A stretch of DNA of 64,000 nucleotides from an uncultured Candidatus Saccharibacteria bacterium (GCA_964490365.1 CAZBAG010000003.1:18116-82115); one strand, 5' to 3'; positions 2,815 to 63,874 are shown, numbered from the stretch's first letter. Translations and numbers: made by a program. The notes: generated by a model not told the origin, from the letters alone.

Positions 2815-2863
2815 AAAAAGAGTCTTTGTAAAAAGGCTCTTTTTGTTTTAATATGTTCTCATT

Positions 2864-9795: not shown

Positions 9796-9812
9796 CAGTA
9801 AAGTATATTTCA

Positions 9813-48555: not shown

Positions 48556-50880
48556 ATGACCACTGCTAAAACCTACAGAGTAAAAGGAATGCACTGCGCG
48601 TCATGCGCCGGCATTATTGAGAAGACTTTCAAAAAGACTGAGGGTGTCCAGTCTGCAGAGGTTAACTATGGGACCGAAACGGCAAAAATTTCATATGACG
48701 AATCAAAAACAAACCCTCATCATCTTTCACAAAAAATAGAAAAGTTCGGATACTCTCTCGCTCTGGATCAAGACAATCCTCATAATCATGCAGGTCCCAC
48801 AGCCGAAGAAATGGGTATGTCTCCGAGCGAACATGCAGCACATCTTGGTCTAAATCAAACCAAGAAAGAAAAATTGGCTGAAGTTGCAGCTCAGAGAATA
48901 CTTGTACTTTCAGCTTTGCCTCTTGCTGTCATTGCAGCCTTTGTTATGGGTTGGGATATTTTTGCTCAGTACGGCCTGGTAGCTGAAATGAGCTATATCA
49001 TCAAAGAGTTTTTTCATCACCTTCTGCCTCTCCTTGCAACATATACGCTCTTTGTTGTTGGTAAGCCTTATCTCCAGGGTTTTTATCGATTCCTTCGCTA
49101 TGGCAAAGCGAATATGGATACACTTATCGGTATAGGAACAGTCGCTGCATTTTTATACAGTTTTGCGGTGACCGCTTTTGAAGATGTCCTCAGACCTTTT
49201 ATAAACGTTGATTATCAATACTACGACGTAACCATAGTTGTCATCACCTTTATTGCTCTTGGCAAATATTTAGAGGCTTGGTCCAAAATAAAAACTGGTG
49301 ATGCAATTGAGAAGCTTCTTAACCTTCAGGCAAAAACTGCTCTTGTGGTCCGAGACGGAAAAGAAATTGAGATTTCAGTAAATGATGTAAAGCATAACGA
49401 TCTCATAATTGTTAAACCAGGAGCAAAGATTCCGGTGGATGGTGTGATAACCGAAGGATCATCTTTTGTAGACGAATCAATGGTTACCGGTGAACCAATG
49501 CCAGCCCAAAAGAAAATCGGAGACTCAGTCGTAGCGGGAACAATCAACACAAACGGATCATTTACATTTAAAGCTACGAAAGTTGGTTCAGAAACTCTAC
49601 TCGCACAAATAATCAAAATGGTTGAAGACGCTCAAGGTAGCAAGGCACCTATTCAAGCATTGGCCGATAAAATTTCATCCGTCTTTGTACCAATTGTCCT
49701 CGTTATCGCATTCCTTACCCTTGGCGCTTGGTTATTCTTCGGATCGCAATATCTTGGTTTTTCTCAAGCGCTTTCATTCGGTCTTGTGTCGTTTGTCGGC
49801 ATACTCGTGATCGCTTGCCCTTGTGCACTTGGTCTCGCAACTCCTACGGCAATTATCGTCGGCGTTGGAAAGGGTGCTAAAGAAGGTATCCTCATTAAAG
49901 ATGCGGCAACACTAGAGAAACTCCACAAGGTAAATACAGTGGTGGTTGATAAGACAGGTACGATCACGAAAGGAAAGCCAGCTCTTGTGGATATTCAAAA
50001 TCTTTCAGATAAAAAGGATGACGAACTTGTATCCATCCTTGCATCGCTTGAAAAGAAATCAGAACACCCGATCGCCCATGCGATCGTAAGCTATGCGCAA
50101 GAGAAAAACATTCGGGTATCTAATATTTCAAATTTCGAGGGCATACAAGGTAAAGGACTTAAGGGAACAATTAGTGGAACTGAATACTTTGTTGGCAATG
50201 CCAAACTCATTAAAGACCTGAGTATTTCATTCGATTCGTCAAAAGTTGAGCAGTTCACAGCTCAAGGAAAAACTCCGGTCATTCTCGCAACTAAAGAAAA
50301 GGTTCTCGGTTTTGTCATGGTGGCCGATGAAATAAAAGCGGAATCGATTGAAGCAGTAAAAAATCTCCACTCGCTTGGTATCAAAGTAGTGATGCTCACC
50401 GGCGATGATGAAAAGGCAGCAAAATACATTGCCTCATTGGTTGGTATTGATGATGTGGTTGCGCACGTACTTCCTGAAGACAAATTGAAAAAGATTGAGG
50501 AGCTGCAGTCACAAGGTCGAGTGGTTGCCATGGCAGGTGATGGTGTAAACGACGCTCCTGCACTCGCTCAAGCTGATGTGGGTATTGCCATGGGGACCGG
50601 AACTGATGTGGCTATCGAATCGGCCGGCATTACACTTCTCGGGGGTGATATTTCAAAGCTCGTAAAAGCTATCAAACTTTCAAAAATGACCATGCGCGGC
50701 ATCAAACAGAATCTCTTCTGGGCTTTCATCTACAATATTGTCGGTATTCCTCTTGCAGCTGGGGCGTTATATCCAGTCTTCGGTTGGCTCCTTAATCCCG
50801 TCTTTGCCGGATTTGCCATGGCGATGTCTTCGGTATCGGTCGTATCAAACTCACTTAGGATTAAAGCTCAAAAACTATAA
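48556..50880 (+). CDS. copA: Copper-translocating P1B-type ATPase
   Basis: N-terminal HMA domain GMHCASCAG, transmembrane CPC motif, DKTGTIT phosphorylation site and GDGVNDAP. Confidence 0.95.
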
Positions 50881-50885
50881 TTATC

Positions 50886-51917
50886 ATGTCTACACAAACA
50901 CAGAAATACACCTTTCACGTTCATGGCATGCACTGCAACTCCTGTGTACTTATGACTGAAAGTGAGATCGGCGATCTGCCGAACGTCACTCATGTTAAAT
51001 CGAGCTTGAAAAATCATTCAGTTCAAGTAATTGGCGACTTTAGAAATAAGACATTGGAACAGATCGCAGAAGAACTTACCGTCCCCCTCAAGCCTCATGG
51101 CTATACTGTGTCAGTTGAAAAACAAAAACATAATGCCAAATGGGGAGACTTTAAAATTGCGATCCCAATCGCACTAAGTTTTGCTGTCCTCTTTGTAGTC
51201 CTGCAGAAACTGGGAATTGTTAACCTAGTGAGCGCAGGCAATGTCACATACGGCACTGCTTTCGTGATCGGTATCATTGCTTCACTTTCAACATGCATGG
51301 CAGTTGTCGGCGGGCTAGTTCTATCAATGTCAGCAACTTTTGCTAAAGAGGGCGACAAGATAAAACCTCAGCTTATGTTCCATGCTGGACGAATAGCCTC
51401 ATTCTTTGTACTCGGTGGAGTAATTGGTGCGATCGGGTCAGCATTTACACTCAATACTTCTGCGACGTTTATCCTGAGTTTGATAATTGGCATAGTCATG
51501 CTCATCCTCGGTATCAATCTTCTCGATACATTCCATTGGGCAAAAAAGTTGCAGCCGTCAATGCCGAAGTTTATTGCTAAGCATGCTCATAGCGTATCAA
51601 AGTTCAATCATACACTTACGCCGCTTCTTGTAGGTATTGTTACTTTTTTCCTGCCATGCGGATTCACACAGTCAATGCAACTTTATACGCTTACCACTGG
51701 TAATTTCCTTCATGGCGGACTGACTATGCTCGCGTTTGCACTTGGAACATTGCCAGTTCTCGCGCTCATTAGTTTTAGCTCATTCAGTATTCAAAAAAGT
51801 TCAAAGGCAGGAGTGTTCTTTAAGACTGCAGGGCTTATTGTGATTATGTTCGCATTATTCAATCTCATTAATAGTCTGGTAGTGATCGGAGTCATACCGC
51901 CAATATTTAACTTCTAG
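50886..51917 (+). CDS. HMA-domain protein fused to a CcdA/DsbD-type thiol-disulfide membrane domain
   Basis: N-terminal GMHCNSCV metal-binding domain. The membrane part has Cys in transmembrane segment 1 (LSTCMAV) and in a later segment (FLPCGF), as in CcdA/DsbD/MerT-like proteins. Confidence 0.6.
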   Translation: MSTQTQKYTFHVHGMHCNSCVLMTESEIGDLPNVTHVKSSLKNHSVQVIGDFRNKTLEQIAEELTVPLKPHGYTVSVEKQKHNAKWGDFKIAIPIALSFAVLFVVLQKLGIVNLVSAGNVTYGTAFVIGIIASLSTCMAVVGGLVLSMSATFAKEGDKIKPQLMFHAGRIASFFVLGGVIGAIGSAFTLNTSATFILSLIIGIVMLILGINLLDTFHWAKKLQPSMPKFIAKHAHSVSKFNHTLTPLLVGIVTFFLPCGFTQSMQLYTLTTGNFLHGGLTMLAFALGTLPVLALISFSSFSIQKSSKAGVFFKTAGLIVIMFALFNLINSLVVIGVIPPIFNF

Positions 51918-51930
51918 TATAATTCTAATC

Positions 51931-52320
51931 ATGAAAGCAACTATTATTTCAGTCATTGTGGCGGTGTCCCTCATCGGGGGAGCTTTCTTGCTTAGCCGAG
52001 GAAGTTCTAGCGATGATAATTCTATTCCCGCAAACAATGTCAGCATCGTGGATGGAAAACAAATAATCGAGATACGAGCAAAAGGCGGATACCGGCCACG
52101 AAAGAGTATTGCGAAAGCCGGCATGCCTACAGTGTTGCGATTCAATACCGCAGGCACATTCGACTGCTCATCCTCGGTACGCATTCCAAGTCTCAATATC
52201 AGCAAAGGTCTGCTACAGTCAGGTTCTACTGACATAGATATTGGTACCGGAAAGCTGGGAACACTTCAGGGTTCATGCGGAATGGGCATGTATCCGTTTG
52301 AAGTTGAGTTTCAAAGTTAA
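51931..52320 (+). CDS. Small secreted cupredoxin-like protein
   Basis: Signal anchor followed by a beta-rich domain with Cys and Met ligand candidates (FDCSSS...GSCGMGMYPFEVEF). Confidence 0.45.
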   Translation: MKATIISVIVAVSLIGGAFLLSRGSSSDDNSIPANNVSIVDGKQIIEIRAKGGYRPRKSIAKAGMPTVLRFNTAGTFDCSSSVRIPSLNISKGLLQSGSTDIDIGTGKLGTLQGSCGMGMYPFEVEFQS

Positions 52321-53348: not shown

Positions 53349-56273
53349 TTAAGGGCCAAACTCTCGTTTTCGAATCTCAACACCCTCCTCGGCTCGTTTT
53401 CGTTCGTGCATGATTCTTACGTTAAGGTATTTTTCGTATTCCACAGCAAAATTCTTTACGGCGGTATGAGGATCGGTCTTAAGTTTCTGTGCATCCGCTT
53501 TCTTTGCTTCGTAGGCTGTTACAAAACCGTCTTCTCCCATGACTACACCTGTTTGAGAAAGACTACCGAATAGCGAACCCCGAATCTCATCATATTTGGC
53601 ATGGTCATGGTATTTTTTAGCGATTGCTTTTACTACGCCAAATAGAAAATCCTCCCCTTGGCGTTTATTAATTATGGATAAAACTATATCCAGTTCTTCT
53701 TTTCCACCATTATTTACAAGATCAACCAGGGACTGCTCAAAGGTGGGGCTGAAACTTGAAAAGATTTCTTCCAAAAGATGGCTAGCTTCCCATCGAAACA
53801 ACCATTTGTTTTTCTTGCCACCTTTACTGAACCATGCCAAAAGCATAGGTATAATTTTTGTCTCATTTTTCTTTAAGGCAGCATTGAGTTTGTGAAAATT
53901 AAAGGGAACAGCATCGTATCTGTCATATATGTTTCTCTCACGTTTTGATTTAAGTTCGACTCTTTTGTAGAAAAAATCAATTATCTTTTCAGGATACTTT
54001 TCAGCAAGCGGCATCAGAACCTCCTCGATATGATAGTCGATGTGTGGGAACATCAATAAGTTTTCAACAAGTACGTCAAAGTCTTTTTCAGAAAAATCCT
54101 TTAAAATAGATTCTCCTCGAAACCAGACGTTCTGAATCCACCAGTAGTTTTTATTTTTTGTAAGCTCTTTAAGTGTCTTTATAAATAAAGCTCTCGTGTT
54201 TTTATATTTTGGGTAGTTTCTGACTATTGAACCTGTGATGTTGTTAAGGGCTTGCAAATCCTTCTTTGCTTTTGCCTTAGTGAATATTTTATTCAAGATT
54301 TTTCCATCAATTTCTTCCACATAGTCAAATAGGCGTGCTGAAACCGCTAAATGCTTATCATCCATGGTCCATTCACTGACAATCTGTTTTGCCTTCTTCT
54401 TTTGAGGGCCTGACCAAATTCCAGCTATAAGGTGAATGAGAAACGGATCAAGCTCTGGAGTATCGATGAGTTGCAGAGCAAGGTTGGTTTTTTGCTTTCC
54501 AAGCTCATAAAGGAATTTGTTGAAATATTGAAATTCGCCTGGCTCGACGCTGGAGTAGTTTTTAATAATTTTTAGAATTTTAAGTTTCCATTCAGGAATA
54601 TTTTCCTGGGTAATATCCTGCACATATTGAGATACCTGATTGTTTCTTGTTTTTGCTGCTTTACCCCAATCCATTTCCTCGTCAAAACGTCCATCATAGC
54701 CAACAAGCACTCTGTACATTTGGTAATCCTGATTTGAGTGGATTATGGCATCTAAATCTCCAATACGAGCAAAAGACTCTCTCTTAAATCTCCTTATAAG
54801 CCAGTATGACTGCTCCTCAATTTCTTTCATGATCTCATTTTCAGCAGATGGGAGTATAGAAATATAAAAATCAATTAGCTCATTAGTGTTTTCGATAATG
54901 ACCTTCTCCATTTCTTCGTTCTTTTCTCCTCGATCTGAAGTGTAAGATGCTTGCTGTAGTCTTTTCAGCACTTTCTCTTTTAGACTGACGCTGGGAGCAA
55001 GGAAGTAGAGCTTTTTACCAAGTGCCAGCGTTCTTTTTCTGACCTCGAGAAGTGGTTTGTCGGGGTGTAAGGCTCCGAAATGAAAAGTGAATGTTTTATA
55101 ATCAGTCATCTCATGACCCTCAAAAGAAGGGTCGAGAAGGTGACCAACTGCTTCGGCAGCAAGATCAAATCGTTTTAATGTCTCAGCTTCACTCCACGCT
55201 TCAATTTTTTCCAAAAGAAGAATTTGCATTTGATATCCTATCTGTTTCAATGCCCTAAGATCGTACTGTGCAAAATGCTCGAATACTTTCAATACCTTTG
55301 CTTTAATATCCTTGTCTGTATCTTCAGCAATCTCTGCTAACAAATCAAAAGCTTCTATTGGTCTATGAAATCTAAGTTTTTCGATTATATCGAGACACAC
55401 GATTGCCACATCTTTATATGAATGACCGGCAAGCTTACCAAAAGGGGTCTCCATTGGCTCAGTTTTGGTATTTTTTGCTTTGGCGATTACAGCTTTAATT
55501 ATCGTTGCCGCATTAAGGTGTTCTGGAGTCTTGTCTCCAAATTCTTCGATGTATTTTAAAAGGAGCTTTAAATTTTCGTGCAATTCATTATTTGATTTTG
55601 AATCAAGTACGCTCTTAAGAAAGGACTCGTCAAAGATTTTTTTACCTTCCTTTACCTTTTGAATCTCTTTTGCAATGAAGTCAAAAGTATACTGGGCTTC
55701 CTTGATATGATTCTTCATCGTATCTGCCAGGCGTTTTTGTAGAGATTCAAAGGTATGTGAATCAAAGTTTTTGATTTCATCATCAGGTTTATAGGTAGAA
55801 TCATGAGCCATTTCTGACCATGCATGATAAAGGACTGTGGTGAGCTGAATTTCGCATTTTAGTCCATTGAATCTTTGATACTTTGCTGATTTCAAAAGGT
55901 CGTCTTTTAATTTAACAATCAAATGTGATGCATTGTAACCATCTGTAGAAAATCTAAGGTTATGTTTGACAACCTCGAATTCTTTGAATAACAGGTTTGC
56001 AAATCTATCAATATTATCTGTATAAAAAATAACTCTGCAGCCAGAAAGATCATCTATTTCAAGTAAATCTTTAACATTTACCTTGCCACTCTCCAGCTTT
56101 CTTTTTAAGTGATCAGGGTCTTTTTCTCTACTTGCAACCATTTGGTATCCAAATGATTCATTTTTTAATATACTCTCCAAAATTGATTTTACTTCGAGAG
56201 CAAAATCATGAAAGTCCTCCTTTCTCTTTTTATAGCTTTCAATTAAGGTTTTAATATTTTCTTCTTTTGACAT
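53349..56273 (-). CDS. 974-aa protein with an N-terminal RelA/SpoT-type nucleotidyltransferase (alarmone-synthetase-like) domain fused to an approximately 800-aa all-helical C-terminal region
   Basis: RelA/SpoT synthetase-fold motifs are present: DDLSGCRVIFY (compare DxxGxRVI), YNASHLIVKL (compare YRSLHTAV) and CEIQLTTVLYHAWSEMAHDSTYK (compare EIQIRTxxMHxxAExGxAAHWxYK). The remainder is helical with no recognised domain. Confidence 0.75.
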   Translation of the reverse strand: MSKEENIKTLIESYKKRKEDFHDFALEVKSILESILKNESFGYQMVASREKDPDHLKRKLESGKVNVKDLLEIDDLSGCRVIFYTDNIDRFANLLFKEFEVVKHNLRFSTDGYNASHLIVKLKDDLLKSAKYQRFNGLKCEIQLTTVLYHAWSEMAHDSTYKPDDEIKNFDSHTFESLQKRLADTMKNHIKEAQYTFDFIAKEIQKVKEGKKIFDESFLKSVLDSKSNNELHENLKLLLKYIEEFGDKTPEHLNAATIIKAVIAKAKNTKTEPMETPFGKLAGHSYKDVAIVCLDIIEKLRFHRPIEAFDLLAEIAEDTDKDIKAKVLKVFEHFAQYDLRALKQIGYQMQILLLEKIEAWSEAETLKRFDLAAEAVGHLLDPSFEGHEMTDYKTFTFHFGALHPDKPLLEVRKRTLALGKKLYFLAPSVSLKEKVLKRLQQASYTSDRGEKNEEMEKVIIENTNELIDFYISILPSAENEIMKEIEEQSYWLIRRFKRESFARIGDLDAIIHSNQDYQMYRVLVGYDGRFDEEMDWGKAAKTRNNQVSQYVQDITQENIPEWKLKILKIIKNYSSVEPGEFQYFNKFLYELGKQKTNLALQLIDTPELDPFLIHLIAGIWSGPQKKKAKQIVSEWTMDDKHLAVSARLFDYVEEIDGKILNKIFTKAKAKKDLQALNNITGSIVRNYPKYKNTRALFIKTLKELTKNKNYWWIQNVWFRGESILKDFSEKDFDVLVENLLMFPHIDYHIEEVLMPLAEKYPEKIIDFFYKRVELKSKRERNIYDRYDAVPFNFHKLNAALKKNETKIIPMLLAWFSKGGKKNKWLFRWEASHLLEEIFSSFSPTFEQSLVDLVNNGGKEELDIVLSIINKRQGEDFLFGVVKAIAKKYHDHAKYDEIRGSLFGSLSQTGVVMGEDGFVTAYEAKKADAQKLKTDPHTAVKNFAVEYEKYLNVRIMHERKRAEEGVEIRKREFGP

Positions 56274-56289
56274 GAATATTTGTTTACGT

Positions 56290-56308
56290 GTTGATAACTG
56301 GGGTTGAT
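56290..56308. promoter_or_regulatory. Direct repeat GTTGAT-N7-GTTGAT in the 65-bp divergent promoter region, just upstream of a TATAAT box (56327-56332): candidate operator for the LexA-fusion protein
   Basis: GTTGATAACTGGGGTTGAT. It lies between the RelA/SpoT-fusion start (56273, minus strand) and the LexA-methylase start (56339). Confidence 0.35.
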
Positions 56309-56338
56309 GACTTTCTATTTATTTTCTATAATATCACC

Positions 56339-57799
56339 ATGATTACAAAGAAGCAAAAAAGTGTCCTAGATTTCATCACTGATTATCAAAAGAGTAAGGG
56401 GTATGCTCCCGCTCTTGAGGAGATAAGGAAGAAATTTAAACTTGCTTCTGTTTCAACTGCTCATCATCATGTGACAAAGCTTCGTGATTTGGGATATCTT
56501 GAGAAAGAAGAGAACAAACCTAGAGCAATTGATATCGTGGATAGAGAGATGATGGTAAAAATCCCTCTTCTTGGAACTATTGCAGCAGGACAACCCATTG
56601 AAGCTATACAAAATAAAGAGACTATTGCTGTGGCTAAAAGCAAAATACCTTCCTCTTCTGAGGTCTATGCTTTACGTGTTGTCGGAAATAGTATGATTGA
56701 GGAAAATATTAATGATGGAGACATTATTTTAGTAAAAAATCAGCAGACAGCAGAGAATGGACAGAAAGTTGTAGCTCTTATAGATAATCAAGAAACAACA
56801 CTAAAGAAATTTTATAAAGAAAAAGGACATATTCGACTCCAGCCAGCAAATAAGGATATGGAACCTCTTATTTTTAAGAGTACTAAAGATGTATCTGTTC
56901 AAGGCGTAGTGCTTGATGTGATAAAAGAACAAAGGTCCCTTCCTCTAGAGTTACCAGAACAAAAAGAATTAGAAAAATTTAAGGAACTTCCTTTAAATAA
57001 ATTTATATGTGGTGACGCGATACATTATCTTCGAAGACTACCAGATAGGTCAGTAGATCTAATTGTCGCAGATCCTCCTTACAATCTTTCTAAGGGAAGT
57101 AATATCCGTTTTGATAACCAAGTTAATAAACTTAAGGGTTTTGGTGGTACCTGGAATAAAGTTATGGAGCAATGGGATAGCATGCCAATGGCGGATTATT
57201 TTGAATTTACTATTAAGTGGGTACAGGAAGCAAAAAGAGTTTTAAAACCTACAGGTTCTATATGGGTATTTGGAACTTACCACAATATTGGAATTATTAA
57301 CTTTATTTTCCAAACTCTCGGCATCGAAATTATCAATGAAGTAGTTTGGTATAAACGTAATGCTTTTCCAAATCTAGCAGGGCGAAGATTTACAGCAAGT
57401 CACGAGACATTATTGTGGGGTCATGTTGGAAATGAAAAGAGACAATATTACTTTGACTATAAACAATCTAAAAGTTATGCAGACCCTTCTGATTTATTAA
57501 AGGCGGGAGGAAAACAGATGCGTACTGTTTGGGATATTCCAAACAACAAAGGAGCCGGGGAGATTAGCTTTGGTAAGCACCCAACCCAAAAACCATTGAG
57601 TGTTTGTAAAAGGATAATCTCTTTAACTTCTAAACCAGGTGATGTTGTCGTAGCTCCTTTTGGAGGTGCTGGAAGTGAGTGTGTTGCAGCAAAAGAATTA
57701 GGTAGAAATTATTTAGGGTTTGAGCTTGATCAGCAGTATGTGGATATAGCACAGAAACGACTTTCAGCTGTTCGTAATCAAGATACACTTTTCTCATAA
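56339..57799 (+). CDS. Fusion of a complete LexA-type repressor (wHTH plus S24 autopeptidase) to an N6-adenine/N4-cytosine DNA methyltransferase (beta class, DPPY)
   Basis: LexA half: wHTH (LEEIRKKFKLASVSTAHHHVTKLRDLGYLE), cleavage site LLGTIAAGQP, Ser motif LRVVGNSM and Lys motif QKVVALIDNQETTLKKF. Methylase half: DLIVADPPYN (motif IV), a VVVAPFGGAGSE C-terminal AdoMet motif, beta-class order. Start taken at ATG 56339. Confidence 0.85.
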   Translation: MITKKQKSVLDFITDYQKSKGYAPALEEIRKKFKLASVSTAHHHVTKLRDLGYLEKEENKPRAIDIVDREMMVKIPLLGTIAAGQPIEAIQNKETIAVAKSKIPSSSEVYALRVVGNSMIEENINDGDIILVKNQQTAENGQKVVALIDNQETTLKKFYKEKGHIRLQPANKDMEPLIFKSTKDVSVQGVVLDVIKEQRSLPLELPEQKELEKFKELPLNKFICGDAIHYLRRLPDRSVDLIVADPPYNLSKGSNIRFDNQVNKLKGFGGTWNKVMEQWDSMPMADYFEFTIKWVQEAKRVLKPTGSIWVFGTYHNIGIINFIFQTLGIEIINEVVWYKRNAFPNLAGRRFTASHETLLWGHVGNEKRQYYFDYKQSKSYADPSDLLKAGGKQMRTVWDIPNNKGAGEISFGKHPTQKPLSVCKRIISLTSKPGDVVVAPFGGAGSECVAAKELGRNYLGFELDQQYVDIAQKRLSAVRNQDTLFS

Positions 57800-57803
57800 T
57801 GTC

Positions 57804-58610
57804 ATGATTCTAAAACCCTTTATAAAATGGACCGGAAGTAAACGGTCCCAAGCTGAAGAAATAACCTCTTATTTTCCTAAAGAGATTGATACTTACTACG
57901 AACCGTTTTTAGGTAGTGGTGCAATTTTAGGACATCTGAAACCAAAAAAGGCTGTAGGTGGAGATGTAAATAAACCCCTCATTGAGCTTTGGAAAATATT
58001 GAAGGAAGATCCAGAAAAAGTTGCAAAGGAGTATACAAAACATTGGCAATCATTACAGGATGAGGGTCACTTATATTTCTATAAAATAAGAGAACGGTTC
58101 AATAAAAAGCAATCACCAATAGACTTTCTTTTTCTAACCAGGACATGTGTAAATGGTCTTATTCGCTATAACAAAAATGGAGAATTTAATAATTCACTAC
58201 ACCATACACGTAAGGGAATGAATCCTGAGCAACTAAGAAAGATCATTCTTCAGTGGGCTATTCTTATTAAAAGCTACAGATTTTCAGATCAATCTTACGA
58301 GATAACAACAAAAGACGCTGGTAAAAATGATTTTGTGTATCTGGACCCTCCTTATGCAAACACTGGGACTAGATATTTTGGAGGAATCGATTATGACAAT
58401 TTCATTAGTTACCTTGAACAGTTAAATAAGAAGGGTATAAAATTCGCTCTTTCATTTGACGGTACCAGAGGAGATAAATCCTTTGTCGTTGAGATTCCAA
58501 AACATTTATACAAACGGCACATTCTCGTTCACTCGGGAAACTCTGCTTTTAATAAGGTCCAGAACGGAAAGGTGGAGAAAGTTCACGAATCTCTTTACCT
58601 GAATTATTGA
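57804..58610 (+). CDS. Dam-family (D12 class) N6-adenine DNA methyltransferase
   Basis: FIKWTGSKRS, YYEPFLGSGAI (AdoMet site) and LDPPYANTG motifs in alpha-class order. Confidence 0.85.
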   Translation: MILKPFIKWTGSKRSQAEEITSYFPKEIDTYYEPFLGSGAILGHLKPKKAVGGDVNKPLIELWKILKEDPEKVAKEYTKHWQSLQDEGHLYFYKIRERFNKKQSPIDFLFLTRTCVNGLIRYNKNGEFNNSLHHTRKGMNPEQLRKIILQWAILIKSYRFSDQSYEITTKDAGKNDFVYLDPPYANTGTRYFGGIDYDNFISYLEQLNKKGIKFALSFDGTRGDKSFVVEIPKHLYKRHILVHSGNSAFNKVQNGKVEKVHESLYLNY

Positions 58611-60625
58611 TGCAGCACTAAACTAATAATTCCCTTAAATCTATCAGCAAGTTTTTGAAGGGTCGGAATAAGTATAAGCCCAGTCTCTTTTGCTGTTATA
58701 TGTATTATGGTCACCTTATTATCGGTGTTAAATTCTACACCCAGAGCAATATCAGATTTGCTTACCTTTAAGGTTGATTTCAGATCTTTTTCATTTTGAT
58801 AGCGAAAAGCAACACCAGATAAACCAGCCAGGTCGTTAGTATATTCATCTACAGTTCTTAACCAATCGTCTTTACTATACTCACGAAAAGCTATTGGTTT
58901 TTTACTTAAAAGCGCGTGTACATATTTTATCAATCGCGGCCCAATACTTTTCTCTAATGTAAAAGATGTATCTTTCGATTCCATCGAGAGTAAAATCTTA
59001 TCGTTTATGAATTGTATGATGTGGTCTGGCCGTTTAGAAGATTTACCAGATACTCTTGGAAGCGAAGTCCATCGCAATTCTAGTTTCTTGGTAGGTTCGT
59101 AAATGCTTATGCCACTCCAATCGCCACCTGGCGGATTACACAATGATTCATATACTCCTTGCGTTAACGCATTTGAGAAAAGTAGATGCAATACAGCATC
59201 AACATCATGTTCACCAAAATTAGGTATTTCTTTTGATGCAGGTAGAGCCTTCTTTTCAAACACCTTATCGTTTGGACTAACTAAAAGGCCATAATTTTTC
59301 AGTGAACTACTTGTACTACTATCCACTAGTATTCCATTACTAAGATTAACGATTGCTTCCCAAAGTCCATTAATTGAAGCAAGTTTTCTCATATCTTTTT
59401 CAAGCAAGGTCCAAGTAGATTGTTTGGCAGGACCATATACTACAGTAAGCAAATCTACATCTTCAATTCCAAATATCATTCGAGCTAAGGGAACTAGTCC
59501 TCGATCAGGTCGAGAGTCGTCACCTCGAGGTTTAAAGCCGGCTACCCAGACACAGACTAAAGGTTTTTCAGATTTTGAAACCCATTGAATGAACTCTGCA
59601 CCAGCCTTTTCGCCATAGATTCTAGTGATTTCTTTGCCAAATTCTGCCCGTTTATCGGTGGGGATAATACATATTGGCATTTCTCTAGAACCTATCGCTC
59701 TGGCCCCATTCTTTATAGTTGTTTCGAGTAGATTCTTAAAAGTGGGCGTTAGAGTTTTGATACCAGTTTTCTTATTCCATGGCATTGCTTTTTTAATCAA
59801 CCAGTTTAACTTTTCTGCACCAGTTTTTTGAGAATAAAGTTCGGTCCATTCAGTTGCAGTCAGAACATCTGATCTTTTACGCTGTGTGGTAAGTATCTCT
59901 AAAATTTTAAGAACCTTTGTCTCGACTTGAGTGTGCGCTTCCTTAAAATCAGTCGAAAGCAAAATTCCTCTCACTATTTCAATTGATTCCTTTGTTCCAA
60001 AGCAATCTTTAAAAATCTCAATGATTTTCTGATCGCTAGATGGACTTGGTATATAAACGGGTAGTGACACCGAATTCCTACTTGCACCTAATACTGCATA
60101 CGCAAATGGAACTAGTGGGTTTGGAAATCGTGCAGCCTTAATTTTTCGATCCGAATCGAGCTCCTGGCCACCTAATTCAGTAAAATACAAATAAGGGATA
60201 CCAGCATATGCCAAAGCAAGAGCTCGCCCTGTTCTTTGCCACGCATTATTGCCTGCAGGGAGTGCCCCACTGAATTCTAGAGCTAGAATAGGAACCTCAC
60301 ACTCTTCTCCTCCACTTATTTCTAATTTTGTAATAATTGCATCAGGAGCTTCTCGCAAGCTTCCGCCAAGAGATGCGATATGATCTGTAAGCGCAAAATT
60401 CCAACGACCATAACCCGCAAAAAACTGTACTGTAAAATCCTCACCGTTTCCGGCAATGAATTTGTATTTTGGAGCGAAGGCCGGTCCAGATATTAATTCT
60501 GGCTGGCTACCACCTAAAGAATTTACTATAAGCTTTAATGCGCTCTCACATTCTAAAATATTGTCTCCATGGATACGCAACTGGTGCTGGGTCATTGAAA
60601 TGTATTGAAAAATATTGTATTTCAA
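58604..60625 (-). CDS. Putative restriction endonuclease partner of the two methyltransferases (673 aa, family not recognised)
   Basis: Convergent with, and overlapping by 7 nt, the Dam-like gene. Large enough for an enzyme cleaving outside its site or a fused specificity domain. The call rests on position only. Confidence 0.4.
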   Translation of the reverse strand: MKYNIFQYISMTQHQLRIHGDNILECESALKLIVNSLGGSQPELISGPAFAPKYKFIAGNGEDFTVQFFAGYGRWNFALTDHIASLGGSLREAPDAIITKLEISGGEECEVPILALEFSGALPAGNNAWQRTGRALALAYAGIPYLYFTELGGQELDSDRKIKAARFPNPLVPFAYAVLGASRNSVSLPVYIPSPSSDQKIIEIFKDCFGTKESIEIVRGILLSTDFKEAHTQVETKVLKILEILTTQRKRSDVLTATEWTELYSQKTGAEKLNWLIKKAMPWNKKTGIKTLTPTFKNLLETTIKNGARAIGSREMPICIIPTDKRAEFGKEITRIYGEKAGAEFIQWVSKSEKPLVCVWVAGFKPRGDDSRPDRGLVPLARMIFGIEDVDLLTVVYGPAKQSTWTLLEKDMRKLASINGLWEAIVNLSNGILVDSSTSSSLKNYGLLVSPNDKVFEKKALPASKEIPNFGEHDVDAVLHLLFSNALTQGVYESLCNPPGGDWSGISIYEPTKKLELRWTSLPRVSGKSSKRPDHIIQFINDKILLSMESKDTSFTLEKSIGPRLIKYVHALLSKKPIAFREYSKDDWLRTVDEYTNDLAGLSGVAFRYQNEKDLKSTLKVSKSDIALGVEFNTDNKVTIIHITAKETGLILIPTLQKLADRFKGIISLVLHQ

Positions 60626-60788
60626 TTCTACTTCAATTTCTTCATTTTTCCTATCTGGATCAAAGCGCCGCCGAATTAGCCCCTAAATTGCCCTGTGTAC
60701 GCTTTTCGCAGCATGTTCAGGGCTTTTTACGTTCCTGGACCAATACCCTCAAATTTGCACATATTCGGACCTACACTTAAAAGGTCCT

Positions 60789-61060
60789 AAAAGTAATGCA
60801 CACCGATTTGCATATTTTATGGCATTAGGATTACAGCAGTCCTTTAGGGCAAAAGTAATGCACCATTTTTTGCTCTTTTGGGACAGTACGATTACAGCAA
60901 TCCTTTAAGGTAAAAGTAATTCCTATATTTAGACACTTTTGCATCTATAGGATTAAGTAGTTCTTTGGTCCAAGTAATTCCTGCAGTTAGAAAATTATAG
61001 GACCTTAGAATAAACAAATCGGCGATCCAAAAGTAATGCACGCAATTTTGCACGAAATTG
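60789..61060. repeat. Iteron-like array: 4-5 degenerate tandem units of about 60 bp, each containing AAAAGTAATGCAC and (C)GATTACAGCARTCCTTTARGG
   Basis: AAAAGTAATGCAC occurs at 60789, 60851 and 61029, with variants AAAAGTAATTCC at 60912 and AAGTAATTCC at 60972. GATTACAGCAGTCCTTTAGGG is at 60830 and GATTACAGCAATCCTTTAAGG at 60891. An interlocking hairpin lies at 61088-61136. Confidence 0.55.
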
Positions 61061-61326
61061 GATCTACGATACATAACACTTCCAGTTGCGCGGAAAGAGC
61101 TGAGTCACTCGCAACTGGGACTCAGCTCTTTCTGTTTTCAGGAAGTCTGATACAAGGTCGAACACCCTCATGCTAAGCAAACAAGCCCTAGAAGAATATA
61201 AGGAAATTCATAAGCAGGAAACCAATACGATCCTAGCTGATGAAGTCTTGCTTGATGAGGCAATTAATCTCCTCACGCTTTTTGATCGCGTCTATCGGCC
61301 GATCAAGAAAGTGTGGCTACAAGAAT

Positions 61327-62238
61327 ATGGAAGGAATCACACTCGATCCAGAATGGGAACTACCAAACAGAAAAGAAGAGATTGCGCATCAGTATCATCT
61401 GAAGAAAATACAAGAACTTCAACAGATGGTAGATCGGTCCAAGTTGCGGGGTAAACGCAGGGTCACACGATTTTTTGTCGATAATGAATATGTGGAGAAC
61501 GGCTATATGGAAAAATTGCCGAAGCTCTGTACCTTGGTGTATCAAGGACTCTTATATCATGGCAATACCGAAACGCAGACAGCGTGGCCGAGTTTTAAGA
61601 AACTCACCGGACACACTGGAGAAAAGAATCGAAACTACATATCAAATGCTCTTCGGTTGCTCAAAGAGTGCGGCATCATTGGTGTGGTCCAGTGCAAGAA
61701 AGGATTTAAAACCTTAAACCTTTACTATTTTCAGTCGACCGAATATTGGATTAGTCTCGAACATACTACTAAACGTCTTAAGCTTACCGATAGCCTTGCG
61801 CAGTATCCAAACGTGACCCTCCGTAGTATCAAAAGACGTGGTGTCCGTAGGAAGAACGTTGATACTCTAACTAACCAAATAAATAACAATCCGAATTCTG
61901 TAACTAGCATCGGAGATGTCTTAGCAAGGAGAATGCAGAAATGGCAGAAAAGCCCAGAGGTTGCTATTCCAGAGGGTTCTCGCAATACTGTCGTTCGCAC
62001 AGCATATGAGGGAGATGTAGAGGTAAGTACCATACACTTAGATAGCCCAGATATACCCGAGGAAAATGGTGAAAAAACGGTACTCCGTAGTGTTCCAGAA
62101 GATACCACGCAGGTTCCCGTAATAACGGGAAATTTACGGGAAAAAATCGCTGAATTGGATACCACGCAAACACACCATGAATTAGCCCTAGAAGACATAA
62201 CCAAAGAAGATATTGGACCAGGTAGCGCAACATTATAA
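61327..62238 (+). CDS. Winged-helix replication-initiator-like protein (HTH_36/RepA-like)
   Basis: LVYQGLLYHGNTETQTAWPSFKKLTGHTGEKNRNYISNALRLLKECGIIGV reads as a Rep-type winged helix. Start taken at ATG 61327. An overlapping upstream ORF 61170-61454 lies in another frame. Confidence 0.45.
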   Translation: MEGITLDPEWELPNRKEEIAHQYHLKKIQELQQMVDRSKLRGKRRVTRFFVDNEYVENGYMEKLPKLCTLVYQGLLYHGNTETQTAWPSFKKLTGHTGEKNRNYISNALRLLKECGIIGVVQCKKGFKTLNLYYFQSTEYWISLEHTTKRLKLTDSLAQYPNVTLRSIKRRGVRRKNVDTLTNQINNNPNSVTSIGDVLARRMQKWQKSPEVAIPEGSRNTVVRTAYEGDVEVSTIHLDSPDIPEENGEKTVLRSVPEDTTQVPVITGNLREKIAELDTTQTHHELALEDITKEDIGPGSATL

Positions 62239-63874
62239 AACCATGAATAAAACACAACCAATCAAATACTTTCTCTATGCCCGTAAATCGAGCGAGGCAG
62301 AAGATCGACAAGCAGCATCCATCGATGCTCAAAAGGACGAACTCTTAAAGATCGCTAAAGAACAAGGGCTGGTTATCGTTGATATCTTGGAAGAATCACA
62401 ATCAGCCAAGAAGCCAGGAAGACCAGTATTCAACAAAATGCTTGAGAGAATCTATAAAAGCGAAGCCAACGGTATTGTATGTTGGAAATTGGACCGACTA
62501 GCCCGTAATCCAGTAGACGGTGGACAGATAAGTTGGATGTTGCAGCAGAGTGTGATAGCTCAGATTGTTACCTTCGGCCGAACGTATTATCCAACTGACA
62601 ACGTTCTCATGATGCAGGTTGAGCTTGGAATGGCCAACCAATACATCCGAGATCTTTCAGTAAACGTAAAGAGAGGACTCGCTAAGAAGGTCAGAGAAGG
62701 TTGGCTTCCAAGCGGGGCACCGATTGGGTACATGAGCACACCCGATAGAGATAAAGGATTTAAAACAATCAGTATCGATCCAAACCGATTCCCAGTGGTC
62801 CGCAGACTCTTTGACCTTATGCTTACCGGCACTTACACTGTGGCTCAAATTTGGAATATATCCCGTAAGGAGTTGAATTTGAAAACATATCAGCGAAGAA
62901 ATATTGGTGGTAAGCATCTTTCAAAAAGTGCAGTGTATGCAATTTTAAGCAATCACTTTTACTACGGATGGTTTGAGTACCCATATAAAAGCGGAGAATG
63001 GCATAAGGGCGCACATGAGCCGATGATTACCGAAGATGAGTTTAATAAGGTTCAAGTACTTATGGGGCGCAAGACAACTCCTCGGCTTGAGAAGAATTTA
63101 AGTTTTGCTTTTACAGGGCTTATGAAGTGCGGCACCTGTGGTTGTAGTATTACGGCTCAAGCCAAAGTTAAGCGATGTAAGAATGGCAACGTCCACCATT
63201 ATGTCTACTACAACTGCACCAAGAAGAAAGTCGATACCAACTGTCCAGAGCGATGTGTCGAACTAAAGGATCTGACACTCGATATCAAAGAAAAAATAAG
63301 TGAGATCACTATTTCAGAAAAGTTTAAGAACTGGGCTATCAAGCATCTCCATGTAATGAGAAAGAATGAAGCTGACAGTGATACGTTGGTCCTTAAAGGA
63401 AAGCATAAAGAACTTGAAGAAGTTACTAAGAATTTGCAGTCACTTACGCTTAATTTCACCTCACCAAAGAACCAAGACCGATTATTGATATCTGATGATG
63501 AATACCAGAACCTCAAAGCCGGAATGGTTAAACGAAAGCTAATTCTTGAAGATGAGCTCAAGGTCCAAAAGAAACAGGTCCTTGAGTGGGTGGAACTTAC
63601 CGAGCGAACCTTTGATTTTGCATGTTATGCCCATATTTGGTTTGAAAAAGGAGACGATAAGACGAGGAGGGCGATACTTTCATGTTTAGGCTCGAACCTC
63701 ACCCTAAAAGGCAAAAAACTCTTTGTTAATTACCATTCTTTCATCAAGACGATGATGAAAAGTCGTCAGGCGGTTGAAGAAGAATTAGAGAAGGTTAGAA
63801 CCTCTGAAAAGCGAGTCTATAAAAGACAAAACCCCACAAATCGTGAGGTTTCGTCACTAGGGCTCCCCGAGTAG
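62213..63874 (+). CDS. Large serine recombinase (resolvase catalytic domain, recombinase domain and zinc ribbon)
   Basis: N-terminal YARKSSEAEDRQAASIDAQ...CWKLDRLARN with the catalytic Ser, a recombinase domain and a CGTCGC...YYNC zinc ribbon. The protein is 553 aa. The last five codons are templated by a tRNA 3'-end-like sequence. Confidence 0.9.
   Translation: MDQVAQHYKTMNKTQPIKYFLYARKSSEAEDRQAASIDAQKDELLKIAKEQGLVIVDILEESQSAKKPGRPVFNKMLERIYKSEANGIVCWKLDRLARNPVDGGQISWMLQQSVIAQIVTFGRTYYPTDNVLMMQVELGMANQYIRDLSVNVKRGLAKKVREGWLPSGAPIGYMSTPDRDKGFKTISIDPNRFPVVRRLFDLMLTGTYTVAQIWNISRKELNLKTYQRRNIGGKHLSKSAVYAILSNHFYYGWFEYPYKSGEWHKGAHEPMITEDEFNKVQVLMGRKTTPRLEKNLSFAFTGLMKCGTCGCSITAQAKVKRCKNGNVHHYVYYNCTKKKVDTNCPERCVELKDLTLDIKEKISEITISEKFKNWAIKHLHVMRKNEADSDTLVLKGKHKELEEVTKNLQSLTLNFTSPKNQDRLLISDDEYQNLKAGMVKRKLILEDELKVQKKQVLEWVELTERTFDFACYAHIWFEKGDDKTRRAILSCLGSNLTLKGKKLFVNYHSFIKTMMKSRQAVEEELEKVRTSEKRVYKRQNPTNREVSSLGLPE

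What the first reader, a model, noticed from the sequence alone, without database searches (positions are those of the whole stretch)
56339..60625. Three-gene restriction-modification module with two methyltransferases of different classes and an unusually large putative endonuclease
A beta-class DPPY methylase (fused to LexA) and a Dam-like alpha-class methylase lie in tandem, convergent with a 673-aa ORF that overlaps the Dam gene end by 7 nt. Paired methylases are typical of Type IIS systems, which need one methylase per strand, or of DpnII/MboI-type systems with dsDNA plus ssDNA GATC methylases. The 673-aa partner is much larger than DpnII/MboI nucleases, and no nuclease motif was recognised by eye. 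This is therefore either a Type IIS-like enzyme or a new nuclease partner.
Basis: inference. Interest (0 to 1): 0.5.

Follow-up and report, generated by a model that had tools for sequence, protein, structure and literature searches.

The report
LexA-fused BsmI-type restriction-modification cassette
This is a complete three-gene restriction-modification cassette of the well-studied BsmI type; its large nuclease is normal for that family, and its one unusual feature is that a protective methylase is fused to the DNA-damage repressor LexA, which probably ties methylase production to DNA damage.

Summary
The three ORFs are real. The "unusually large" nuclease is a full-length homologue of the Type IIS enzyme BsmI (PDB 9f38, E 5e-90, 32% identity). 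Every residue of BsmI's two active sites is conserved, so its size is normal for the family. The beta-class and Dam-like methylases match the two halves of a fused 626-aa Type II methylase profile. The order M1, M2, then convergent R holds in every one of 80 genome loci long enough to show it. The RM module itself is therefore an ordinary new member of the BsmI/Mva1269I family, probably recognising GAATGC or a related site.

The notable part is the LexA fusion. It is intact (Ala-Gly site, Ser118, Lys156) and conserved in about 113 of the best 120 protein clusters, all from Patescibacteria-like sources. A conserved direct-repeat box, TTTCKAT-N4-TTTCKAT, overlaps its -10 element at 56312-56329. 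The same box precedes stand-alone Patescibacterial lexA genes and covaries with the recognition helix. Close LexA relatives also head DpnI, MutH-like and other methylase genes.

Most likely mechanism: a LexA-autorepressed methylase operon that is derepressed by DNA damage. I found no description of this in the literature I could read.

The parts
56289..56297 (+). DnaA-box-like element TGTTGATAA, one mismatch from TGTGGATAA, upstream of the -35 hexamer. Whether it belongs to the system is uncertain.
   Evidence: TGT[GT]GATAA occurs in the same orientation in 11 of 22 Patescibacterial lexA promoter regions, against 0.005 expected per 120 nt. The window sequence was read.
56304..56332 (+). Predicted sigma-70-type promoter of the lexA-M1/M2 operon: -35 TTGATG (56304-56309), 17-nt spacer, -10 TATAAT (56327-56332). 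The -10 ends 6 nt before the ATG, so the mRNA would be leaderless or nearly so.
   Evidence: It is the best promoter-like site in 56100-61300, matching 10 of 12 positions. The sequence was read.
56312..56329 (+). LexA box: direct repeat TTTCTAT-TTAT-TTTCTAT with an 11-bp period, filling the spacer and overlapping the -10 element.
   Evidence: It scores 20.1 bits and is the only PWM hit of at least 15 bits in the 64-kb window. The same box sits in the lexA promoter of almost every related locus examined (none was identified for L007 or L187's true start). In 1.03 Mb of loci, all hits of 19 bits or more lie at lexA promoters or at one second site in L090/L091. The half-site covaries with the recognition helix.
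56339..57799 (+). lexA-M1 fusion gene, 486 aa. It holds a LexA winged-HTH (nt 56342-56527), an S24 autopeptidase domain (56564-56911) with cleavage site Ala83-Gly84, Ser118 and Lys156, a variable linker, and a beta-class N6-adenine methylase (57053-57757) with DPPY at aa 245-248.
   Evidence: Pfam and NCBIfam matches: TIGR00498 lexA scores 183 bits against a cut-off of 111. The fusion is conserved in about 113 of the best 120 clusters and its catalytic features are conserved in alignment A2.
57804..58610 (+). M2: alpha-class, Dam-family N6-adenine methylase of 268 aa, 4 nt downstream of lexA-M1 and so in the same operon.
   Evidence: Pfam MethyltransfD12 and TIGR00571. It matches the C-terminal half (positions 362-626) of the fused methylase profile PDLC03302.
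58604..60595 (-). R: BsmI/Mva1269I-family Type IIS restriction endonuclease of 663 aa, counted from ATG 60595. The bottom-strand site is D11, P84-D85, E107 and Q120-R121. The top-strand site is E462, P523-D524 and E539-S-K541.
   Evidence: PDB BsmI E 5e-90 over the full length. BLASTP gives 32% identity. PADLOC REase_II scores E 1.7e-123. The catalytic residues are invariant in 16 homologues and match those listed for BsmI in PMC11889245.
58604..58610 (.). 7-nt tail-to-tail overlap of M2 and R, with no terminator between the convergent genes.
   Evidence: ORF coordinates. No terminator-like site was found at the junction. Convergent, overlapping or abutting ends recur in the related loci.

Best explanation
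This is a complete, apparently functional Type IIS restriction-modification cassette of the BsmI/Mva1269I family, carried by a Patescibacteria-like genome.

Nuclease. R is a monomer with two different PD-(D/E)xK-type active sites. It binds an asymmetric site, most likely GAATGC or a related ANTG-containing word. It nicks the bottom strand with its N-terminal site and then the top strand with its C-terminal site. This is inferred from homology.

Methylases. M1 (beta class) and M2 (Dam-like) each N6-methylate the adenine on one strand of that asymmetric site. This is inferred.

Regulation. The M1/M2 operon is controlled by its own product. The LexA moiety fused to M1 binds a direct-repeat LexA box that overlaps the -10 element of the operon promoter, and so represses it. 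This is inferred from a conserved box that covaries with the protein.

Damage response. The LexA moiety keeps its Ala-Gly cleavage site and Ser/Lys dyad. RecA-stimulated self-cleavage after DNA damage, including self-restriction, would therefore detach the DNA-binding domain and derepress the methylases. Increased convergent transcription might also lower R expression. That would amount to transcriptional restriction alleviation for a Type II system. This last step is the least certain.
For: Nuclease:
- It aligns with BsmI over residues 6-636 of its 663 (chain residues 4-647 of 676, E 5e-90), at 32% identity. BsmI and its isoschizomer Mva1269I share 30.2% (PMC11889245).
- All BsmI metal ligands and catalytic residues are present and invariant in 16 homologues: D9, PD90-91, E109, QR122-123, E470, PD527-528 and ExK546-548 in BsmI numbering.

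Methylases:
- Both carry DPPY.
- They match the N-terminal and C-terminal halves of one 626-aa Type II methylase profile.
- They are fused into one protein in 7 related loci.
- The order M1, M2, then convergent R is kept in every locus long enough to show it, across many phyla.

LexA moiety:
- It scores above the curated cut-off of the lexA equivalog model.
- The AAG site, the G[ND]SM serine and the TLKK lysine are conserved in all full-length fusions aligned.
- The fusion is found in about 113 of the best 120 clusters, down to 48% identity.

LexA box:
- It is the only strong box in the 64-kb window and overlaps the -10 element.
- The same box precedes lexA in 12 fusion loci and in 8 further loci, 7 with stand-alone LexA genes and 1 with a second fusion family.
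- Helix residue Q or E goes with TTCGGT half-sites in 6 of 6 loci. H, F or Y goes with TTC[GT]A[TG] in 15 of 15. Fisher p is about 1e-4, without correction for phylogeny.

Supporting context:
- HTH-only variants keep the box (L053, L055), which fits an autorepressor role.
- Autorepression by an N-terminal HTH on a methylase is an established mode of RM control (PMC3874152).
- Damage-induced restriction alleviation is established for Type I systems (PMC3874165).
Against: - Nothing here was tested experimentally.
- Specificity cannot be read from the sequence. The base-contacting patch GNQAWQR of BsmI is GNNAWQR here. More distant relatives (BsrI, BtsCI, BsrDI, BtsI) cut other sites. GAATGC is not depleted in the window, at 20 observed against 22 expected.
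- The fate and activity of the S24-methylase fragment after cleavage are unknown. If it is degraded, DNA damage would lower M1 rather than raise it.
- HTH-only and LexA-less versions of the same cassette exist, so SOS coupling is not essential to the system.
- No recA, second lexA or second LexA box lies in the window. I could not tell whether the fusion is the cell's only LexA.
- No convincing R promoter was found, so regulation of R by transcriptional interference is a guess.
Confidence: 0.8

Rival explanations
1. The LexA moiety is only a self-limiting operator-binding module, like the N-terminal HTH of M.SsoII or a C protein. It sets the timing and level of methylase expression when the cassette enters a new cell. 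RecA-dependent cleavage plays no physiological role.
For: - Variants with only the LexA winged-HTH fused to M1 keep the same box (L014, L053, L055; P0191, P0214, P0230).
- Most cassettes in other phyla have no LexA at all.
- HTH-methylase autorepression is well established (PMC3874152).
Against: - The Ala-Gly site, the catalytic Ser and the catalytic Lys are conserved in every full-length fusion aligned, down to about 48% identity. That is hard to explain without selection for cleavage.
- The S24 domain may, however, be kept for dimerisation alone.
Confidence: 0.25
2. The system is a damage-triggered suicide (abortive-infection-like) switch. LexA cleavage marks the S24-methylase fragment for proteolysis, as happens to E. 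coli LexA fragments. Sustained RecA activation, for example during phage infection, then depletes M1 and lets R kill the cell.
For: - The methylase is covalently tied to the part of LexA that is a protease substrate after cleavage in E. coli (my own recollection, not checked here).
- RM systems can act as addiction or toxin-antitoxin modules (PMC3874152).
Against: - Cleavage also derepresses the operon, so synthesis rises.
- M2 is not fused and would persist.
- Hemimethylated sites normally resist cutting, so killing would need more than one replication round without M1.
- No data bear on the stability of the fragment.
Confidence: 0.1
3. The fusion is an artefact (a frameshift or assembly error), or an accidental read-through of the housekeeping lexA gene into an inserted methylase gene, with no function of its own.
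For: - One long-read contig (L187) shows lexA and a methylase split into three short ORFs, so sequencing errors do occur in such loci.
- NCBI names several of the fusions simply 'transcriptional repressor LexA'.
Against: - The same single 484-496-aa ORF occurs in about 113 of the best 120 clusters, from many independent assemblies and sources, at 48-91% identity.
- LexA, M1, M2 and R diverge roughly in parallel between the window's cassette and related ones (87/90/84/90% for L003, 62/70/70/65% for L007).
- The cassette sits between different neighbours in different contigs.
Confidence: 0.03
4. It is a DpnII/MboI-type GATC system, with one methylase for double-stranded and one for single-stranded DNA, plus a novel nuclease.
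For: A beta-class plus Dam-like methylase pair is also the DpnII arrangement (my own recollection, not checked here).
Against: - The nuclease is a full-length BsmI homologue and shows no match to any other nuclease family.
- The best methylase profile for both M1 and M2 is a fused enzyme linked to this nuclease family.
Confidence: 0.01
5. The cassette is decaying: the methylases act as orphans and R is inactive.
For: GAATGC is not avoided in the window.
Against: - All three ORFs are intact.
- All catalytic residues of R are present.
- Identical copies occur in two other assemblies.
- Site avoidance is a weak test on 64 kb, and the specificity is unknown.
Confidence: 0.04

Closest known systems
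BsmI (Bacillus stearothermophilus; PDB 9f38, 9ezd, 9ez5, 9ez7) and its isoschizomer Mva1269I: monomeric Type IIS enzymes cutting GAATGC 1/-1
   Same: - Same length class (663 aa against 676 aa).
- The two proteins align over nearly their whole length.
- Both active sites are conserved: the N-terminal D...PD-Xn-E-X12-QR site and the C-terminal E...PD-Xn-ExK site.
- The conserved patches GFKPRGDD-RPDRG, CNPPGGDWSG and AGN-AWQR are present.
- The nuclease is accompanied by two N6-adenine methylase activities.
   Different: - Identity is only 32%.
- The adenine-contacting Gln119 of BsmI is Asn here, so specificity is unproven.
- M1 and M2 are separate genes, and M1 carries LexA.
- The host is an uncultivated Patescibacteria-like bacterium, not a Bacillus or Micrococcus.
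Methylases with an N-terminal HTH that repress their own promoter (M.SsoII, M.Ecl18kI, M.EcoRII, M.ScrFI; PMC3874152)
   Same: A DNA-binding domain fused to the N-terminus of the methylase, with a predicted operator overlapping the methylase promoter. This gives negative autoregulation of the 'antitoxin'.
   Different: - The DNA-binding part here is a complete, canonical LexA with its S24 autopeptidase domain, not a short HTH.
- The operator is the phylum's general LexA box, so the cassette is wired into the SOS signal.
- The genes converge, so R has no shared control region with the methylase operon.
Controller (C) protein regulated Type II RM systems
   Same: A dedicated transcription factor encoded in the cassette times methylase expression against nuclease expression. 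Some relatives of this cassette (L011, L012) seem to carry an XRE-type HTH gene directly upstream of R.
   Different: The window has no separate C gene. The regulator is fused to the methylase, is cleavable, and sits on the M side rather than the R side.
Damage-induced restriction alleviation of Type I systems (EcoKI; PMC3874165)
   Same: The proposed logic is the same: after DNA damage the cell shifts the balance from restriction towards protection, so that unmodified sites created by repair are not cut.
   Different: In EcoKI this is post-translational (per PMC3874165, which I read only in part). Here it would be transcriptional, through LexA cleavage, and it is only inferred.
Canonical LexA / SOS repressors with direct-repeat boxes (Alphaproteobacteria GTTC-N7-GTTC; Patescibacteria, Sanchez-Osuna et al. 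2017, not readable here)
   Same: - A winged HTH plus S24 domain, above the curated cut-off of TIGR00498.
- An Ala-Gly site and a Ser/Lys dyad.
- An autoregulatory direct-repeat box with an 11-bp period.
- Stand-alone Patescibacterial LexA proteins are up to 82% identical to this moiety.
   Different: It is covalently fused to a DNA methylase and encoded inside a restriction cassette. No other box, and no SOS gene that I looked for (recA, a second lexA), was found in the 64-kb window.

Membership tests
BsmI/Mva1269I family (Class II monomeric two-site Type IIS endonucleases) | Full-length sequence homology to BsmI | tested here: met
   phmmer against the PDB gives E 5e-90, query 16-646 against chain 4-647 of 676. 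BLASTP gives 32% identity over 658 columns, E 6e-99. PADLOC REase_II PDLC03434 scores E 1.7e-123.
BsmI/Mva1269I family (Class II monomeric two-site Type IIS endonucleases) | N-terminal non-canonical bottom-strand site PD-Xn-E-X12-QR, plus the Asp9-equivalent metal ligand | tested here: met
   D11, P84-D85, E107 and Q120-R121, with exactly 12 residues between E107 and Q120. D11, D85, E107, Q120 and R121 are invariant in 16 homologues, and P84 aligns with BsmI Pro90.
BsmI/Mva1269I family (Class II monomeric two-site Type IIS endonucleases) | C-terminal canonical top-strand site PD-Xn-ExK, plus the Glu470-equivalent ligand | tested here: met
   E462, P523-D524 and E539-S540-K541, all invariant in 16 homologues.
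BsmI/Mva1269I family (Class II monomeric two-site Type IIS endonucleases) | Recognition of GAATGC with 1/-1 cleavage, acting as a monomer by sequential nicking | not testable with these tools
   Only indirect evidence is available. The contact patch GNQAWQR is GNNAWQR here, and GAATGC is not depleted. Enzyme assays or methylome data are needed.
Type IIS RM system with one methylase per strand | Two N6-adenine methylase activities genetically linked to the nuclease | tested here: met
   Both methylases carry DPPY. The order M1, M2, then convergent R is kept in all informative loci among 80. M1 and M2 are fused in 7 loci. Both match the halves of PDLC03302.
Type IIS RM system with one methylase per strand | Each methylase modifies a different strand of the asymmetric site | not testable with these tools
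   Strand-resolved methylome data or in-vitro methylation are needed.
LexA (SOS repressor) | LexA winged-HTH plus S24 domain, scoring above the curated family cut-off | tested here: met
   TIGR00498 scores 183.2 bits against a cut-off of 110.95, over aa 2-197. Pfam finds PF01726 and PF00717.
LexA (SOS repressor) | Ala-Gly self-cleavage site and Ser/Lys catalytic dyad | tested here: met
   A83-G84, S118 and K156, conserved in all full-length fusions in alignment A2.
LexA (SOS repressor) | Autoregulatory LexA box in its own promoter | tested here: met
   The box at 56312-56329 overlaps the -10 element. It is conserved across fusion and stand-alone lexA loci and covaries with the recognition helix. 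Actual binding was not shown.
LexA (SOS repressor) | RecA-stimulated cleavage and control of a DNA-repair regulon | not testable with these tools
   No recA, no second lexA and no second box in the 64-kb window. The rest of the genome was not available.
SsoII-type autoregulating HTH-methylases | An N-terminal DNA-binding domain on the methylase, with its operator at the methylase promoter | tested here: met
   Domain order and the box at the promoter. Function is inferred.
SsoII-type autoregulating HTH-methylases | Divergent M and R genes sharing one control region, so that methylase binding also switches on R | tested here: not met
   M and R converge and overlap at their 3' ends. No box lies upstream of R in the window or in related loci.
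DpnII/MboI-type GATC system | A DpnII-family nuclease | tested here: not met
   The nuclease matches only BsmI-family models.

The most novel reading that the evidence does not exclude
In Patescibacteria (CPR bacteria) the SOS repressor LexA has been recruited again and again as the built-in controller of restriction systems. It is covalently fused to at least two different methylase families, one partnered with a BsmI-type and one with a MutH-like nuclease. It also appears as the first gene of operons with DpnI-type methyl-directed nucleases or with other methylases. DNA damage, including damage caused by the restriction enzyme itself or by infection, would then directly reset the restriction/modification balance. 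That would be a Type II, transcriptional counterpart of restriction alleviation, and an autoimmunity safeguard for cells with small genomes and limited repair capacity.
Probability: 0.4. Interest if true: 0.7.

Novelty: new variant of a known kind. Interest (0 to 1): 0.5.

Why it matters
The RM enzymes themselves are routine: one more BsmI-family system, of some use as a source of a new Type IIS or nicking enzyme from uncultivated bacteria.

The LexA fusion is the part worth following. Three observations support this.
- It is an intact, widely conserved LexA-methylase polypeptide with a conserved, covarying LexA box.
- LexA is linked to DpnI-type, MutH-like and other methylase genes in the same phylum.
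- Together these point to direct coupling between the DNA-damage signal and restriction-modification control, which I did not find described in the literature I could read.

If the coupling is real, it gives a testable mechanism for how Type II systems avoid self-restriction after DNA repair. It would also change how "transcriptional repressor LexA" annotations in CPR genomes should be read, since many of them are methylase fusions inside defence cassettes. Finally, it would add restriction systems to the reported Patescibacterial SOS network.

Tried and rejected
- Pfam and NCBIfam gave no hit for the 663-aa protein. PDB sequence search and PADLOC identified it instead.
- Site avoidance was uninformative. 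GAATGC/GCATTC occurs 20 times against 22 expected, and other candidate words (GATC, GAGTC, ACTGG, GGATG and others) are also at expectation.
- I looked in the window for a second lexA, for recA (Walker-motif regex) and for further LexA boxes. None was found.
- I looked upstream of R for a LexA box or any shared motif in 15 loci. None was found. No convincing R promoter was found either.
- Viral contigs hold no LexA-fused methylase among the best 80 matches and only 12 BsmI-like nucleases. This gives no evidence that the cassette is phage-borne.
- Literature searches turned up nothing relevant for LexA-methylase fusions, for LexA with DpnI, or for GAATGC methylomes in Patescibacteria. The key paper on the Patescibacterial SOS network (Sanchez-Osuna et al. 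2017) is not held. It may already describe the box, and perhaps the fusions.
- Rfam finds only tRNAs in the window.
- I did not run structure prediction, because a solved homologue covers the whole nuclease.
- I read the direct repeat GTTGAT-N7-GTTGAT (56290-56308) as a possible operator. I dropped it because it is not conserved in other loci. Only the TGTGGATAA-like part recurs.

Full report
**Observation.** The three ORFs exist as described.
- lexA-M1: 56339..57799 (+), 486 aa.
- M2: 57804..58610 (+), 268 aa.
- Convergent ORF: 58604..60625 (-), whose last 7 nt overlap the end of M2.

The only correction concerns the nuclease start. All close homologues are 660-668 aa, and independent gene calls on identical contigs begin at ATG 60595, which gives 663 aa. 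G+C falls to 0.33-0.37 over 56-59 kb, against 0.41-0.44 around it. That fits an acquired island.

**The nuclease.**
- Pfam and NCBIfam are silent.
- A sequence search of the PDB hits the four BsmI structures at E 5e-90 to 5e-84, over essentially the whole length: query 16-646 of the 673-aa reading against chain 4-647 of 676.
- BLASTP against the BsmI sequence reconstructed from that alignment gives 32% identity over 658 columns. BsmI and its isoschizomer Mva1269I share 30.2% (PMC11889245).
- PADLOC's REase_II model PDLC03434 matches at E 1.7e-123.

The BsmI structure paper lists the two catalytic motifs as 90-PD-X17-E-X12-QR-123 and 527-PD-X17-E-X-K-548, with metal ligands Asp9, Asp91, Glu109, Glu470 and Asp528. 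The equivalents here are D11, P84-D85, E107, Q120-R121, E462, P523-D524 and E539-S-K541. All of these except P84 are invariant in an alignment of 16 homologues at 43-68% identity. The protein is therefore a normal-sized, apparently active member of the monomeric two-site Type IIS class that includes BsmI, Mva1269I, BsrI and BtsCI (PMC3017599 and PMC1950550).

Specificity cannot be read off. BsmI contacts the two central adenines through N118, Q119 and Q122 of the patch GNQAWQR. Here, and in all 16 homologues, the patch is GNNAWQR. GAATGC is not depleted in the window (20 observed, 22 expected). I consider GAATGC or a closely related ANTG-containing word likely but unproven.

**The methylases.** M1's catalytic part (aa 239-473) is a beta-class N6_N4 methylase with DPPY. 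M2 is a Dam-family alpha-class enzyme with DPPY. Both give their best PADLOC hit to one 626-aa Type II methylase profile, PDLC03302. M1 matches positions 8-263 (E 5e-107) and M2 matches positions 362-626 (E 1e-72).

A scan of one genome per species found 235 relatives of the nuclease, of which the best 80 loci were kept. Every locus that extends far enough has the same order: beta-class methylase, Dam-like methylase, then the nuclease converging on them with abutting or overlapping ends. The hosts include Bacteroidota, Chloroflexota, Spirochaetota, Verrucomicrobiota, Patescibacteria and a few archaeal bins. In seven loci M1 and M2 are a single 523-620-aa ORF, the shortest of which is cut by a contig end. 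This is the expected pattern for a Type IIS system with one adenine methylase per strand. It excludes the DpnII-type reading.

**The LexA fusion is real and conserved.** The N-terminal 197 residues score 183 bits on the curated lexA equivalog model, whose cut-off is 111. Of the best 120 protein clusters found with the whole fusion, about 113 carry LexA_DNA_bind, Peptidase_S24 and N6_N4_Mtase together, at 48-91% identity. They come from many independent assemblies named Parcubacteria, Paceibacterota, Kerfeldbacteria, Woesebacteria and Roizmanbacteria.

In an alignment of 21 of them, all full-length fusions conserve three features:
- the cleavage site (IAAGQP; Ala83-Gly84 here);
- the nucleophile (G[ND]SM; Ser118);
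- the general base (TLKK; Lys156).

The linker between S24 and the methylase is variable. Between the window's cassette and related ones the four modules diverge roughly in parallel: LexA/M1/M2/R are 87/90/84/90% identical for L003 and 62/70/70/65% for L007. The flanking genes differ between contigs, so the three-gene cassette, LexA included, behaves as one unit.

Within the nuclease's family the fusion is confined to the Patescibacteria-like clade (L001-L016). Three loci carry only the LexA winged-HTH on M1 (L014, L053, L055). All others have a plain 272-325-aa M1 or the M1-M2 fusion.

**The operator.** Upstream of lexA-M1 in 12 loci I found the same direct repeat, TTTC[GT][AG]T-N4-TTTC[GT][AG]T, with an 11-bp period. 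It lies either across the -10 element or just downstream of it. The window copy is TTTCTATTTATTTTCTAT at 56312-56329. It fills the spacer of the best promoter-like site in the region (TTGATG, 17 nt, TATAAT, 56304-56332) and overlaps its -10 element. The -10 ends 6 nt before the ATG.

A weight matrix built from the eight distinct sites gives these results:
- Only this site scores at least 15 bits in the 64-kb window.
- In 1.03 Mb of fetched loci, every hit of 19 bits or more lies in a lexA promoter, apart from one second site in L090/L091 upstream of a small two-gene operon.
- The box is also present upstream of stand-alone LexA genes (L087, L090, L093, L188, L189), upstream of a second fusion family (L092), and just inside the probably mis-called start of the LexA ORF in L187.

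So this is the general LexA box of these bacteria. That agrees with the statement that Patescibacterial LexA recognises a direct repeat (PMC7739468, citing Sanchez-Osuna et al. 2017). I could not read the 2017 paper itself.

The box covaries with the protein. Loci whose recognition helix reads ST-x-H-Q/E-H have TTCGGT half-sites (6 of 6). Those with H-H/F/Y-H have TTC[GT]A[TG] (15 of 15). Fisher p is about 1e-4 on 18 of these loci, without correction for phylogeny. This is good indirect evidence that the fused LexA binds its own promoter.

**A wider pattern.** The LexA moiety alone has stand-alone relatives up to 82% identical. I looked up seven of them.
- Three (L087, L088/L089, L093/L094) are followed within 6-20 nt by a DpnI-family methyl-directed nuclease (PADLOC mREase_II, E 9e-111).
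- One (L188) is followed after 13 nt by a different Type II methylase.
- One (L187) is a LexA plus methylase split by what looks like frameshift errors.
- One (L189) precedes RhuM and UvrA-like genes.
- One (L090) is solitary and lies near smpB.

A second, clearly different methylase family also occurs as a LexA fusion (P0185, P0216 and others). In L092 that fusion overlaps a MutH-family nuclease gene by 4 nt and sits next to a large serine recombinase. Linkage of LexA to restriction or modification genes is therefore recurrent in this phylum and not peculiar to this cassette.

**Mechanism.**
- Shown by sequence: all domains and catalytic residues are intact, the box is conserved and covaries with the helix, and the box overlaps the -10 element.
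- Inferred from family knowledge: R nicks the bottom strand and then the top strand of an asymmetric site; M1 and M2 protect one strand each; the LexA-M1 dimer represses the M1-M2 operon, as N-terminal HTH domains do in M.SsoII-type enzymes (PMC3874152).
- Speculative: RecA-stimulated cleavage at Ala83-Gly84 releases the HTH, derepresses the methylases and may damp R through convergent transcription across the 7-nt overlap. That would give a transcriptional analogue of the damage-induced restriction alleviation known for Type I systems (PMC3874165).

Two rivals remain open. In one, the LexA moiety is only an autorepressor; the HTH-only variants support this. In the other, cleavage destabilises M1 and turns the cassette into a damage-triggered suicide module. 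The box is the generic LexA box, so the cassette and any resident LexA regulon would cross-regulate each other. Whether the fusion is the cell's only LexA could not be tested, because no recA, second lexA or second box lies in the window.

**Verdict.** The RM module is a new member of a known family. The LexA-methylase fusion, with its conserved LexA box, is a new variant of the known autoregulating-methylase theme. My searches of the held literature found no description of it, with the caveat that the most relevant paper could not be read.

Noticed in passing
window 56289-56297 (TGTTGATAA); also L003, L008, L010, L012, L087, L088, L090, L092, L093, L188: A DnaA-box-like nonamer, TGTGGATAA (the complement of TTATCCACA), lies upstream of the LexA box. 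It is always in the same orientation and occurs in 11 of 22 Patescibacterial lexA promoter regions, against about 0.005 expected per 120 nt. It may be a second regulator site or part of the promoter. Its function is unknown.
   Followed up: partly
window 53349-56273 (-): A 974-aa gene is transcribed divergently from lexA-M1 across a 65-bp region that contains the LexA box. Its N-terminus (aa 26-216) weakly resembles RelA/SpoT-type nucleotide pyrophosphokinases (NCBIfam YjbM, E 5e-6) and the PADLOC defence candidate PDC-S33 (E 2.7e-10). The remaining roughly 750 aa have no match. It could be a LexA-controlled defence or toxin gene. In L003-L005 a DUF4238 gene occupies the same divergent position.
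   Followed up: partly
window 60789-61052 and 61093-61132: The 575-bp non-coding stretch upstream of R holds degenerate tandem repeats of about 61 nt, with the core AAAAGTAATGCAC repeated three times. It also holds a perfect 14-bp inverted repeat, GAAAGAGCTGAGTC/GACTCAGCTCTTTC. These may be iterons, an attachment region of the neighbouring element, or a terminator.
   Followed up: no
window 61240-62238 (+) and 62213-63874 (+): An HTH_36 protein of 332 aa by ORF listing (303 aa in the gene call on the identical contig) is followed by a 553-aa large serine recombinase with Resolvase, Recombinase and Zn_ribbon_recom domains. The pair lies directly beside the cassette, which suggests the RM module sits at the edge of an integrative mobile element. 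L092 also has a large serine recombinase next to its LexA-methylase cassette.
   Followed up: partly
L087:5001-6426, L088:5001-6414, L093:5001-6412: Stand-alone LexA genes 71-82% identical to the fused moiety form apparent two-gene operons with DpnI-family methyl-directed restriction nucleases. The same LexA box lies in their promoters, in a more degenerate form (below the 12-bit PWM cut-off) in L088.
   Followed up: partly
L092:6001-8114: A second, different beta-class methylase family is also fused to full-length LexA. It is followed, with a 4-nt overlap, by a MutH-family (Sau3AI/MutH-like) nuclease. A LexA box (TTTCGATTCATTTTCTAT) and TGTGGATAA lie upstream.
   Followed up: partly
L090:6461-6478 (-): In a genome with a solitary, housekeeping-like lexA, a second strong LexA box (20.7 bits) lies upstream of an operon of two small unannotated genes (63 aa and 156 aa), next to smpB. 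This is a candidate member of the Patescibacterial SOS regulon.
   Followed up: no
L011 (upstream of ~564) and L012 (upstream of ~6986): In two LexA-fusion loci the ORF ending right at the nuclease start translates to an XRE-type HTH C-terminus (for example ...SKIESGQVRLDVTQLLELARLYQKHVTFFLEQ). This suggests that some cassettes also carry a classical controller (C) protein for R. It was judged by eye only.
   Followed up: no
L187:4001-5549: A long-read contig shows LexA, a 35-aa ORF and a 242-aa N6_N4 methylase in series. The LexA box lies inside the called LexA ORF. This is probably a LexA-methylase fusion broken by homopolymer frameshift errors and a mis-called start.
   Followed up: no
window 1867-2938 and 9725-9796: There is a cluster of tRNA genes (Met, Met, Asp, Thr) and a separate tRNA-Gln. 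No other Rfam family is found in the window.
   Followed up: no
window ~48600-52320: Upstream of the island lie a heavy-metal P-type ATPase, an HMA/DsbD_2 protein and a cupredoxin-like protein. These were identified from gene calls on the identical contig L001, and the window coordinates were converted by me.
   Followed up: no
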